From Naegleria gruberi (taxonomy: Eukaryota), in NCBI GenBank assembly GCA_000004985.1, contig GG739455.1: DNA of 1,288 nucleotides, one strand, 5' to 3'. Below, piece by piece: positions 2-1,120 of this stretch. Within the stretch, counting starts at the first letter, position 1. Every line of letters starts with the position of its first letter. Below the pieces are notes generated by a model. The model saw nothing but the letters and a program-made list of their open reading frames with translations, did no database searches and was not told the origin of the DNA. The position numbers were made by a program, and so were the translations under genes.

Positions 2-67
2 ATATGGCTTTTTAGTGAGATTCGTCAGCAGAATGTTTTTGAAATTATTGAGCTTGAAGAAGAATAA
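2..67 (+). CDS. 3' end of an upstream protein-coding gene (partial, product unknown); C-terminus ...IWLFSEIRQQNVFEIIELEEE*
   Basis: Frame 2 is open from the window edge to TAA at 65-67. Codons are overwhelmingly A/T-ending (ata, ctt, ttt, agt, att, cgt, aat, gtt, gaa x4) and position 1 is G-enriched, as expected for genuine coding sequence in an AT-rich genome. The overlapping frame 3 runs longer (3-122, stop TAA 120-122) but uses many G/C-ending codons (ggc, gtg, ttc, gtc, agc, ttg, aag, aac), which is atypical for this base composition. Only 21 codons are visible, so the frame choice is tentative. Confidence 0.35.
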   Translation: MWLFSEIRQQNVFEIIELEEE

Positions 68-126
68 CAGACAAATTACCAGTGATGGCTACGAGGAAAC
101 CTATTCCAAAGCAAGTGAATAAATTG

Positions 127-186: not shown

Positions 187-196
187 TTCCCGCCCA
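187..196. repeat. GC-rich 10-mer TTCCCGCCCA; exact reverse complement of 1111-1120 (GC-box-like, GGGCGG core on minus strand)
   Basis: Exact 10/10 inverted match to TGGGCGGGAA at 1111-1120. A GC-only core of this length is very unlikely to recur by chance in 1.3 kb of about 27% GC DNA. Confidence 0.7.
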
Positions 197-210
197 ACAA
201 CAATTAAAAA

Positions 211-381
211 ATGAAAAAGCAAAGAAAAATTTCATCCATCAAAAAAACACGGGTGGCCGACGCATATCCCTTTTGGCCTGAAATCAGCACTGGGAAAACG
301 TGGGCCAAGTTGACTTCCAGAGAAATACATAGGTACATGATACCATATTTTCACAGTATGAGTTATCACGCTAAAAAATAA
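211..381 (+). CDS. Hypothetical small ORF, 56 aa, basic (MKKQRKISSIKKTRVADAYPFWPEISTGKTWAKLTSREIHRYMIPYFHSMSYHAKK); coding status doubtful
   Basis: ATG at 211 to TAA at 379-381; the frame is open from 148. It is the only ORF over 50 codons in the window and sits in a locally GC-richer segment. Against coding: many rare-type G/C-ending codons (cgg, ggg, agg, ccc, gcc, acg), weak G enrichment at position 1, no Shine-Dalgarno-like sequence upstream, and it contains the GC-rich repeated motifs GGGTGGCC and GGCCTGAA that recur in non-coding context at 980-991. Confidence 0.22.
   Translation: MKKQRKISSIKKTRVADAYPFWPEISTGKTWAKLTSREIHRYMIPYFHSMSYHAKK
251..282 (+). repeat. Split copy of GC-rich motif GGGTGGCC (251-258) ... 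GGCCTGAA (275-282), related to the contiguous copy at 980-991
   Basis: GGGTGGCC and GGCCTGAA are each exact 8-mers shared with 980-991. Here they are separated by 16 nt (GACGCATATCCCTTTT). The copy lies inside the putative small ORF. Confidence 0.6.
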
Positions 382-606
382 TTTTGGAAAACTTTTATTA
401 ATTTTTGTATTGTTTTTGACGAGTTATAAATAAATTCCCATTTTTAGAATTTTTTAAAATTGATTAATATGGTATTATCATAATGAATACAGAAATTCAT
501 CAAATAATATGAATCAATAATATAAATTGTGTATTAATGTACTTAAATTTCAATTTTCATTAATTCATTCCAACAAATAAAAGACTAGTTATAAAATAAT
601 AAGAGG

Positions 607-618
607 TGTCAATTGACA
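607..618. repeat. Perfect 12-bp palindrome TGTCAATTGACA (TTGACA on both strands), preceded by AAGAGG (601-606)
   Basis: Self-complementary by direct reading. TTGACA equals the sigma70 -35 consensus on either strand, but no convincing -10 sits 16-18 bp downstream in either direction. It is more consistent with a dimeric DNA-binding-protein site. Confidence 0.6.
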
Positions 619-653
619 ATCGCATTAATAGATCATACTTTATTTTAAATTGA

Positions 654-669
654 TGATGTTTTAACATCA
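654..669. repeat. Inverted repeat TGATGTT-tt-AACATCA (7-bp arms, 2-bp centre)
   Basis: Arms 654-660 and 663-669 are exact reverse complements. The spacer is too short for a stable RNA hairpin loop, so an operator-like DNA site or cruciform is more plausible. Confidence 0.55.
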
Positions 670-685
670 CCTTATAGACATGGTA

Positions 686-693
686 TGTATAAT
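686..693 (+). promoter_or_regulatory. TGTATAAT: -10 hexamer TATAAT (688-693) with adjacent upstream TG; possible extended -10 promoter element
   Basis: Exact TATAAT with TG immediately 5' (not the canonical TGnTATAAT spacing). No good -35 (TTAACA at 661-666 is 21 bp away). Nothing coding downstream within the window. Confidence 0.12.
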
Positions 694-708
694 ATTTTTT
701 CATTTTAG

Positions 709-733
709 TTGGTTGATATCAGATTATCAACAA
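709..733. repeat. Hairpin-capable inverted repeat GTTGATA (712-718) / TATCAAC (725-731), 6-nt loop TCAGAT; right arm contains DnaA-box-like TTATCAACA (724-732, 8/9 to TTATCCACA)
   Basis: The 7-bp arms are exact reverse complements. Two more A-T pairs (709-710 with 732-733) can form across a one-base bulge (G711). An EcoRV-type GATATC palindrome is at 715-720. Confidence 0.5.
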
Positions 734-979
734 GATAGAGCTCAACAAAACATTTTCTCCAAAATATGTTAGTGTTTTCATAAGTAAATTAAAAAAACTG
801 ACGACAAAAGTTGCTAAATAGTGTTTAGAGAATTTTCACGTATACGAACATGTATAACGTATTGTAATAAAAAACTAGATAGGGAAAAACATTTAATTCT
901 AAGCTAAAATTTGAAAATACTGTTATTGACCAATATTTTTCATGTTCTAAAAATAATCAGCTTGTTTGCACAGTAATTT

Positions 980-991
980 GGGTGGCCTGAA
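980..991 (+). repeat. Contiguous copy of GC-rich motif GGGTGGCCTGAA, direct repeat of 251-258 plus 275-282
   Basis: Exact 8-mer matches to both halves of the left copy. It is followed by AGGAG (991-995) but no start codon. Confidence 0.6.
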
Positions 992-1033: not shown

Positions 1034-1055
1034 ATTATTGGAGGCCTCCAATAAT
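1034..1055. repeat. Perfect 22-bp palindrome ATTATTGGAGG|CCTCCAATAAT with GC-rich centre
   Basis: All 11 position pairs are complementary (checked base by base). It is the longest perfect palindrome in the window and the GC-richest local segment. No T-tract follows on the plus strand. On the minus strand it is followed by GGTTTCCTTATTA (moderately U-rich), so a weak minus-strand intrinsic terminator is possible. A protein-binding or cruciform site is equally plausible. Confidence 0.85.
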
Positions 1056-1110: not shown

Positions 1111-1120
1111 TGGGCGGGAA
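1111..1120. repeat. GC-rich 10-mer TGGGCGGGAA; inverted partner of 187-196; close to the Sp1-type GC-box consensus KGGGCGGRRY (9/10)
   Basis: Exact reverse complement of 187-196. The inverted pair does not extend beyond the 10-mer, and there is no matching flanking direct repeat. Confidence 0.7.

What the first reader, a model, noticed from the sequence alone, without database searches (positions are those of the whole stretch)
251..991. GGGTGGCC...GGCCTGAA is contiguous at 980-991 but interrupted by 16 nt at 259-274, inside the small ORF
The right copy reads GGGTGGCCTGAA. The left copy reads GGGTGGCC + GACGCATATCCCTTTT + GGCCTGAA. That looks like either an insertion with GGCC duplication or two half-sites at variable spacing. 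The left copy would encode ...RVADAYPFWPE... of the putative 56-aa ORF. A GC-rich repeated motif carrying its own non-coding twin elsewhere is a reason to doubt the ORF, or it indicates an RPE-like in-frame inserted element.
Basis: seen in the sequence. Interest (0 to 1): 0.5.

Follow-up and report, generated by a model that had tools for sequence, protein, structure and literature searches.

The report
Short GC-rich repeat in Naegleria spacer
The repeated 12-base word is really there and is rarer than chance predicts, but it lies in ordinary gene-free DNA of the amoeba Naegleria gruberi, is not a bacterial-style inserted element, and the small reading frame it touches has no support as a gene.

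Summary
GGGTGGCC (251-258 = 980-987) and TGGCCTGAA (274-282 = 983-991) are exact repeats. They are contiguous on the right and split on the left, which amounts to a 20-nt indel flanked by a 5-nt direct repeat, TGGCC. Nothing else aligns around them.

The window is eukaryotic. Bases 3-122 encode the last 39 residues and stop of Naegleria gruberi NAEGRDRAFT_76231, an RGS-domain protein, at 100% identity. The rest is AT-rich unannotated spacer with two GC-richer islands.

A GC-rich two-block repeat of this kind arises in about 0.15-0.2% of shuffles that keep local composition. That is unusual for one window but expected dozens of times across a 41-Mb genome.

The two islands also share an inverted 10-mer, TTCCCGCCCA. 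The right island holds a 22-nt perfect palindrome.

The 56-aa ORF has no credible homologue, and its length is expected by chance in about 25% of shuffles. An RPE-like in-frame element is rejected.

My best guess, at low confidence, is that these are short protein-binding (cis-regulatory) words shared by two islands. Chance and a decayed transposon are close rivals. The Naegleria genome could not be reached with these tools, so recurrence and conservation remain untested. Interest is low.

The parts
3..122 (+). 3' end of a known gene: the last 39 codons and TAA stop of Naegleria gruberi NAEGRDRAFT_76231 (EFC36104.1 / XP_002668848.1, 376 aa, RGS domain PF00615). AATAAA at 118-123 overlaps the stop. 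This fixes the source organism.
   Evidence: 100% identity to the C-terminus of P0004, E 2.3e-12. Protein sequence. Accessions and names.
251..282 (+). Left, split copy: GGGTGGCC (251-258), then a 15-nt unique spacer GACGCATATCCCTTT (259-273), then TGGCCTGAA (274-282). TGGCC is present twice (254-258 and 274-278).
980..991 (+). Right, contiguous copy: GGGTGGCCTGAA.
187..196 (+). TTCCCGCCCA, left arm of an exact inverted 10-mer. It is the second GC-rich word shared by the two islands and lies 55 nt upstream of the left motif copy. It reads as an E2F-type or GC-box-type word (resemblance from memory, not tested).
   Evidence: A repeated 10-mer with at least 7 G/C arises in about 0.2% of block shuffles.
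1111..1120 (-). TTCCCGCCCA on the minus strand (TGGGCGGGAA on plus), right arm of the inverted 10-mer, 119 nt downstream of the right motif copy. TATTTACA (171-178) and TGTAAATA (1150-1157) extend the pair as a gapped inverted repeat.
1034..1055 (.). 22-nt perfect palindrome ATTATTGGAGGCCTCCAATAAT centred on GGCC. It holds two inverted CCAAT words (ATTGG 1037-1041, CCAAT 1048-1052). Its core TGGAGGCC is 2 mismatches from GGGTGGCC on both strands.
   Evidence: Hairpin fold z -1.76.
211..381 (+). 56-aa ORF that overlaps the left copy. Judged unsupported as a gene.

Best explanation
The window is nuclear DNA of Naegleria gruberi immediately downstream of an RGS-domain gene. About 1.15 kb of it is AT-rich, unannotated spacer containing two GC-richer islands, roughly 185-310 and 975-1125.

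The repeated word is a DNA-level motif, not a protein-level one. The most likely reading is that it belongs to a small vocabulary of short GC-rich protein-binding (cis-regulatory) words that both islands share:
- GGGTGGCC / TGGCCTGAA
- TTCCCGCCCA
- GGGYGG, four times
- GGCC, five times
- CCAAT words

On this reading a sequence-specific factor, or two factors, recognise GGGTGG/GGCC-type sites in both islands. The left site differs from the right by a 20-nt indel bounded by TGGCC microhomology, the usual footprint of replication slippage or microhomology-mediated repair. Equivalently, the two half-words are separate sites that abut in one island.

Shown: the source organism, the exact repeats, their rarity under composition-preserving nulls, and the lack of support for coding.

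Inferred: that the words bind proteins, and that the two islands are regulatory.
For: - Source.
- Both halves are exact and GC-rich in a 28% GC window.
- A chained GC-rich repeat occurs in 0.14-0.21% of block shuffles, and the independent inverted 10-mer class in about 0.2%.
- GGGYGG occurs 4 times against 0.13 expected, with 0 of 200 shuffles reaching four.
- GGCC occurs 5 times against 0.82 expected, with 0 of 200 shuffles reaching five.
- Every stretch of 12 nt with at least 8 G/C lies in one of these words or in the palindrome.
- The same two words co-occur in both islands.
- The motif would be read in different frames at the two sites (RVA...WPE on the left, GGLK in the only long ORF on the right). 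A 20-nt difference is not a multiple of 3, so the repeat is not explained by protein coding.
- No RNA family, tRNA or stable shared fold was found.
- A gene-free kilobase is normal for this genome: 40.9 Mb, 15,711 genes, 35% GC (PMC6125883).
Against: - No binding factor, transcript or conservation data exist here.
- Recurrence of the words elsewhere in the N. gruberi genome could not be tested.
- The resemblance to E2F, GC/GT-box and CCAAT words is recalled from other eukaryotes, not tested in Naegleria.
- A literature search found nothing on Naegleria promoter motifs.
- The p-values are per window and post hoc.
- The block-shuffle null ignores any genome-wide k-mer bias, such as a general excess of GGCC.
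- The orientation of TTCCCGCCCA relative to the motif differs between the islands.
Confidence: 0.35

Rival explanations
1. Chance. The two islands are simply GC-richer patches, and a short GC-rich word recurs by coincidence. The split form is a by-product of the self-complementary GGCC core occurring often.
For: - The total shared information is only 12 distinct bases, and no flanking similarity exists.
- A per-window p of about 0.0015-0.002 implies tens of such coincidences in the roughly 31,000 windows of this size in a 40.9-Mb genome.
- The finding was picked post hoc by a reader looking for oddities.
- GGCC is over-represented locally, which makes overlapping GGCC-containing matches easier than the shuffles assume.
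Against: A second, independent GC-rich repeat (TTCCCGCCCA, about 0.2%), four GGGYGG and a 22-nt perfect palindrome lie in the same two islands. If the first two are independent, their joint probability is about 3e-6 per window.
Confidence: 0.3
2. Relic of a non-autonomous DNA transposon, or another old duplication. On this reading 171-1157 is an element of about 0.99 kb. It has degenerate terminal inverted repeats (TATTTACA...TTCCCGCCCA), subterminal short repeats (the GGGTGGCC/TGGCCTGAA words) and an AT-rich interior that codes for nothing. The indels accumulated after insertion.
For: - Exact inverted 10-mer at 187-196 / 1111-1120, extended by TATTTACA / TGTAAATA as a gapped inverted repeat.
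- The 10-mer continues to 17 of 22 matches.
- The interior at 400-900 has 15-27% GC and no long ORF.
- Subterminal short repeats in either orientation are usual in hAT and CACTA elements (established knowledge).
- The 8 nt flanking the 10-mer arms share a central AAAC: GTAAACAT against TCAAACTG.
- N. gruberi is about 5% repeats.
Against: - There is no clean target-site duplication.
- Inverted repeats of 10 nt are short.
- No transposase remnant was found.
- Copy number could not be tested.
- No match in the phage, plasmid, viral or metagenome collections, though these hold essentially no Naegleria DNA.
Confidence: 0.2
3. The GC-richer islands are exons of an unannotated small gene, and the repeat is incidental to coding sequence. 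One model joins 211-332 to 974-1079 through GT(333)...AG(973), giving 75 aa in frame.
For: - The islands have 40-47% GC against 15-27% between them.
- GC at the third codon position (0.45 and 0.43) is close to that of the known CDS (0.49).
- AG|GTACAT and TTGTTTGCACAG| are acceptable splice sites, and the join keeps the frame of the only two sizeable plus-strand ORFs.
- The start context is AAAAAATG.
Against: - No homologue for the ORF, and no Pfam hit for either the ORF or the spliced product.
- The best PDB hit has E = 0.5.
- ORF length is expected by chance in about 25% of shuffles, and the overlapping minus-strand ORFs have similar codon-position GC.
- The frame match has a 1-in-3 prior.
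- Neither ORF matched any protein in the collection that holds the neighbouring annotated N. gruberi protein.
- Even if true, this would not explain the repeat, which is read in different frames.
Confidence: 0.1
4. An RPE-like or REP-like mobile palindromic element inserted in-frame into a small gene.
For: There is a GC-rich segment inside an ORF with a twin elsewhere.
Against: - The host is a eukaryote.
- The extra segment is 20 nt and is not in-frame.
- There is no palindromic fold.
- Only two copies exist, with no flanking similarity.
- The host ORF is unsupported.
Confidence: 0.01

Closest known systems
Clusters of short GC-rich promoter-proximal words in eukaryotes: GC/GT (CACCC) boxes GGGCGG/GGGTGG, E2F sites TTTSSCGC, CCAAT boxes
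   Same: The words are 6-10 nt and GC-rich, and sit in AT-rich intergenic DNA. They occur in either orientation, recur in combination in two nearby islands, and vary in spacing. TTTCCCGC (186-193), GGGCGG, GGGTGG and CCAAT are literally present.
   Different: No factor, transcription start or expression data exist for this locus. Sp/KLF proteins are metazoan. The TGGCCTGAA half has no counterpart that I know of. The resemblance is recalled from memory, not tested.
Microhomology-flanked indels (replication slippage or microhomology-mediated end joining)
   Same: One copy equals the other minus one TGGCC repeat and the 15 nt between the two TGGCC, which is the classic footprint.
   Different: That mechanism relates alleles or true paralogues. 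Here the two sites are 700 nt apart and share nothing else, so common descent is unproven.
Non-autonomous DNA transposons (MITE-like; hAT/CACTA-type subterminal repeats)
   Same: There are short inverted termini, an AT-rich non-coding interior of about 1 kb, and short repeated words near both ends.
   Different: There is no clear target-site duplication, the termini are only 10 nt exact, and neither family nor copy number is known.
Rickettsia palindromic elements (RPE) and bacterial REP elements
   Same: Only the superficial picture matches: a GC-richer repeated segment lying inside an ORF.
   Different: RPEs are 100-150 nt, palindromic, in-frame, multi-copy and bacterial. This segment is 20 nt, not in-frame, not palindromic, present in two copies and eukaryotic.

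Membership tests
Rickettsia palindromic element (RPE) / in-frame inserted repeat | Host is a Rickettsia or related bacterial genome | tested here: not met
   The window encodes the C-terminus of a Naegleria gruberi protein at 100% identity.
Rickettsia palindromic element (RPE) / in-frame inserted repeat | The insert length is a multiple of 3 and keeps the host frame | tested here: not met
   The difference between the copies is 20 nt.
Rickettsia palindromic element (RPE) / in-frame inserted repeat | Palindromic element able to form a stable hairpin, about 100-150 nt | tested here: not met
   Folds of 240-320 and 965-1065 are no better than shuffles (z -0.77, -0.54, +0.12, -0.66). The shared segment is 12 to 32 nt.
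Rickettsia palindromic element (RPE) / in-frame inserted repeat | Host ORF is a conserved protein-coding gene | tested here: not met
   No homologue found. ORF length is unremarkable.
MITE / non-autonomous DNA transposon | Terminal inverted repeats | tested here: inconclusive
   There is a 10-nt exact inverted repeat at 187-196 / 1111-1120 with a gapped extension. It is short.
MITE / non-autonomous DNA transposon | Target-site duplication directly flanking the termini | tested here: not met
   The flanks GTAAACAT and TCAAACTG share only AAAC. There is no match outside 171 / 1157.
MITE / non-autonomous DNA transposon | Multiple copies in the host genome | not testable with these tools
   The N. 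gruberi genome is not in any searchable collection.
Transcription-factor binding-site cluster (cis-regulatory module) | Words over-represented relative to local composition | tested here: met
Transcription-factor binding-site cluster (cis-regulatory module) | Words enriched genome-wide near gene starts, or conserved at orthologous loci | not testable with these tools
   No Naegleria genomic DNA is reachable. P0004 has no detectable relatives.
Transcription-factor binding-site cluster (cis-regulatory module) | Bound by a factor, or has an effect on transcription | not testable with these tools
   This needs ChIP, DAP-seq or reporter assays in Naegleria.
Structured RNA / snoRNA / tRNA-derived element | Match to a covariance model, or a stable fold shared by both copies | tested here: not met
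   All Rfam hits have E above 1 and lie far below gathering scores. No tRNA. No shared fold. No C box upstream of either CUGA.

The most novel reading that the evidence does not exclude
GGGTGGCC...TGGCCTGAA, together with TTCCCGCCCA, marks a Naegleria-specific dispersed element. That could be a very short mobile or regulatory module whose copies differ by a TGGCC-bounded 20-nt cassette, or the ends of an uncharacterised non-autonomous transposon family. Either would recur many times in the genome and shape neighbouring gene expression.
Probability: 0.06. Interest if true: 0.4.

Novelty: new member of a known kind. Interest (0 to 1): 0.12.

Why it matters
It matters little as it stands. If the words prove to be enriched near Naegleria gene starts, they would be among the first candidate promoter motifs for a heterolobosean, a group whose transcriptional regulation is almost undescribed. 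If the 171-1157 segment is multi-copy, it would add a small transposon family.

The practical result is negative and still useful. The window is eukaryotic, the 56-aa ORF should not be annotated on present evidence, and the bacterial 'in-frame repeat element' idea does not apply.

Tried and rejected
- Exact 32-mer scans of genome, viral and metagenome contigs found nothing.
- blastn of the whole window against phages and plasmids found nothing.
- The 18-nt palindrome core in viral contigs gave one unrelated phage terminator hairpin, L001.
- A literature search for the 12-mer returned only primers and guide sequences.
- Literature searches for Naegleria motifs and promoters returned nothing relevant.
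- Exact look-ups of the ORF, P0004 and other window ORFs were not on record.
- A search for P0004 homologues found only P0004 itself. P0004 in metagenome and viral contigs found no relative.
- HMMER of the ORF against 1.84 billion representatives gave three hits. All are tandem-repeat translations whose scores add up over 1-6 short stretches, so they are not homologues.
- The ORF in viral contigs gave two 'relatives' at 44% identity. They lie antisense to a 496-aa ORF I take to be a phage terminase (not checked against any family library), and their E-value covers only the candidate stretches, so they are spurious.
- Rfam at E up to 10 gave only chance-level hits, including ROSE_2 at 259-321 on the minus strand at 16 bits against a gathering score of 65.
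- snoRNA reading (CUGA as a D box): no C box upstream of either copy.
- Extended alignment of the two islands in both orientations found nothing beyond the words.
- Tandem-duplication origin of the 20-nt segment: 254-273 against 274-293 match at only 4 of 15 positions after TGGCC.
- The resemblance of the left copy's reverse complement to a Tc1 terminal repeat was recalled from memory. There is no inverted partner in the window, so I dropped it.

Full report
**Observation.** GGGTGGCC is at 251-258, GACGCATATCCCTTTT at 259-274, GGCCTGAA at 275-282, and GGGTGGCCTGAA at 980-991. A list of maximal exact repeats shows that the second block is one base longer: TGGCCTGAA, 274-282 = 983-991. The two blocks therefore overlap by TGGCC in the right copy, and the left copy carries TGGCC twice (254-258 and 274-278), 20 nt apart. 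The cleanest formal description is a 20-nt indel bounded by a 5-nt direct repeat. Nothing else aligns. The best local alignment of 151-420 against 881-1160 does not contain the motif and is no better than block shuffles (score 25 against 21.3 ± 3.1; 43 of 300 shuffles score at least as high). The other shared 6-7-mers are not collinear.

**Is it more than chance?**
- Each half occurs twice against 0.01-0.02 expected, and 0 of 200 dinucleotide shuffles reach two copies.
- That null ignores the fact that both copies sit in GC-richer patches. I therefore shuffled within 15-, 25- and 40-nt blocks, 20,000 shuffles each.
- In those shuffles a GC-rich 8-mer direct repeat chained to a second 8-mer repeat on another diagonal within 40 nt arose in 0.14-0.21% of cases.
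- Chains of AT-rich 8-mers occur in nearly every shuffle. Only the GC content makes this one rare.
- A per-window p of about 0.002 is real but modest. A 40.9-Mb genome holds about 31,000 windows of this size, so dozens of equal coincidences are expected genome-wide. The finding was also chosen post hoc.

**Where the window comes from.**
- No ORF in the window exceeds 56 codons, and all six frames are full of stops.
- Exact-pattern scans and blastn found nothing in the prokaryote, virus, plasmid or metagenome collections.
- I searched a chimeric query made from the open stretches at the window ends and the larger internal ORFs. It hit one protein at 100% identity over its C-terminal 39 residues (E 2.3e-12).
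- That protein is a Naegleria gruberi predicted protein, NAEGRDRAFT_76231 (EFC36104.1 / XP_002668848.1, 376 aa, RGS domain). Its last residues ...SKASE are followed by the TAA at 120-122.
- The window is therefore eukaryotic nuclear DNA: the 3' end of a gene plus about 1.15 kb of unannotated, AT-rich DNA.
- With 15,711 genes in 40.9 Mb at 35% GC (PMC6125883), a gene-free kilobase is ordinary.
- The other open stretches tried from the window, including the two at its right end, matched no annotated protein.

**The ORF.**
- The 56-aa ORF (211-381) has no homologue in the word-indexed search.
- The exhaustive HMMER scan of 1.84 billion representatives returned three proteins. All are translations of tandem repeats whose scores accumulate over short repeated stretches.
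- Pfam is empty.
- Two tblastn 'relatives' in viral contigs lie antisense to a 496-aa ORF that I take to be a phage terminase; I did not check it against a family library. Their E-value counts only the 14 candidate stretches.
- An ATG ORF of at least 56 codons appears in about 25% of block shuffles of the non-coding part.
- Codon-position GC (0.30/0.43/0.45) does not distinguish the ORF from overlapping minus-strand ORFs.
- Its first third is a translation of an A-rich run.
- I conclude the ORF is unsupported.

**What else is in the two islands.**
- Every stretch with at least 8 G/C in 12 nt belongs to a repeat or a palindrome.
- TTCCCGCCCA occurs at 187-196 on the plus strand and at 1111-1120 on the minus strand. 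A repeat of that class arises in about 0.2% of block shuffles.
- That pair extends as a gapped inverted repeat through TATTTACA (171-178) and TGTAAATA (1150-1157).
- GGGYGG occurs four times against 0.13 expected, and GGCC five times against 0.82.
- A 22-nt perfect palindrome, ATTATTGGAGGCCTCCAATAAT, lies at 1034-1055. It contains two inverted CCAAT words, and its core TGGAGGCC is two mismatches from GGGTGGCC on both strands.
- If the chain and the inverted 10-mer are independent, their joint per-window probability is about 3e-6. This is the main argument that the islands are not random sequence.

**What it is not.**
- Rfam gives only chance-level hits, and there is no tRNA.
- Neither copy nor its surroundings folds better than shuffles, and no structure is shared.
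- There is no C box upstream of either CUGA, so it is not a box C/D snoRNA.
- An RPE-like in-frame element is excluded. The host is a eukaryote, the difference is 20 nt, there is no palindrome, there are only two copies, and the host ORF is unsupported.

**Explanations.**
1. *Shared cis-regulatory words (confidence 0.35).* I rank first the reading that these are short protein-binding words shared by two GC-richer islands. It accounts for a small shared vocabulary recurring in both islands, in either orientation and at variable spacing, in non-coding DNA. It also fits the literal presence of E2F-type (TTTCCCGC), GC/GT-box (GGGCGG, GGGTGG) and CCAAT words. Those identifications come from my knowledge of other eukaryotes and are leads, not tests. 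On this reading the split and contiguous forms are either two abutting sites or one site altered by a TGGCC-mediated slippage or MMEJ indel.
2. *Chance (0.30).* This remains close, because of the look-elsewhere effect and because the shuffle null cannot capture genome-wide k-mer biases.
3. *Decayed non-autonomous transposon spanning 171-1157 (0.20).* It would explain the inverted ends and the AT-rich interior that codes for nothing. It lacks a target-site duplication, and its copy number is untestable here.
4. *Unannotated small gene (0.10).* This is possible. GT at 333 and AG at 973 join 211-332 in frame to 974-1079, giving 75 aa. The product has no Pfam hit, and its best PDB match has E = 0.5, to the last strands of GH13 neopullulanases. 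The model would not explain the repeat, because the word is read in different frames at the two sites.

**Limits.**
- The neighbouring protein has no detectable relatives.
- No related locus exists in the metagenome or viral collections.
- The literature held here has nothing on Naegleria promoter motifs.

The decisive computations are simple genome-wide counts, a self-BLAST of the segment, and RNA-seq mapping on the N. gruberi assembly.

**Verdict.** The feature is a short, statistically unusual but biologically unremarkable GC-rich word pair in a eukaryotic intergenic region. Interest is low (0.12).

Noticed in passing
window 1034-1055: A 22-nt perfect palindrome, ATTATTGGAGGCCTCCAATAAT, centred on GGCC, with two inverted CCAAT words. 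It is by far the least probable repeat in the window. As RNA it forms a 9-bp hairpin (z -1.76). Its function is unknown.
   Followed up: partly
window 187-196 and 1111-1120 (with 171-178 and 1150-1157): An exact inverted 10-mer, TTCCCGCCCA, reads as an E2F-like or GC-box-like word. It is extended by TATTTACA / TGTAAATA into a gapped inverted repeat that brackets about 0.99 kb of AT-rich non-coding DNA. It could mark transposon ends or paired regulatory sites.
   Followed up: partly
window 211-332 + 974-1079: GT at 333 and AG at 973 (AG|GTACAT ... TTGTTTGCACAG|T) would splice the 56-aa ORF in frame to the 37-aa ORF, giving a 75-aa product. The would-be intron is the most AT-rich part of the window. 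There is no Pfam hit, and the best PDB hit has E = 0.5 (C-terminal strands of GH13 neopullulanase, spanning the junction), which is not significant.
   Followed up: partly
window 607-618: A 12-nt perfect palindrome, TGTCAATTGACA, lies in the middle of the AT-rich stretch.
   Followed up: no
window 255, 275, 303, 984, 1043: There are five GGCC sites against 0.82 expected. At least four (five counting the palindrome on both strands) are preceded by a G-rich context: GGTGGCC twice, GTGGGCC once, and GGAGGCC on both strands of the palindrome.
   Followed up: partly
window 3-123: The left end is the C-terminus of N. gruberi RGS-domain protein NAEGRDRAFT_76231. AATAAA (118-123) overlaps its stop codon. 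In a search of 5.8 billion proteins this protein found only itself, despite its Pfam RGS domain.
   Followed up: yes
window 926-936: TTGACCAATAT, a further CCAAT-box-like word, lies about 50 nt upstream of the right motif copy.
   Followed up: no
P0001-P0003: The only HMMER 'hits' to the 56-aa ORF are long translations of tandem repeats from eukaryotic-looking assemblies. Their E-values (down to 2.6e-9) are inflated by summing repeated short matches. This is a caution for small-ORF searches in that library.
   Followed up: yes
L001 1720-1790: An unrelated phage contig carries the same 18-nt core, TATTGGAGGCCTCCAATA. It arises there from a duplicated terminator-like hairpin (AAGCCTCCAATAATGTGTGATATTGGAGGC). 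The match is a coincidence.
   Followed up: yes
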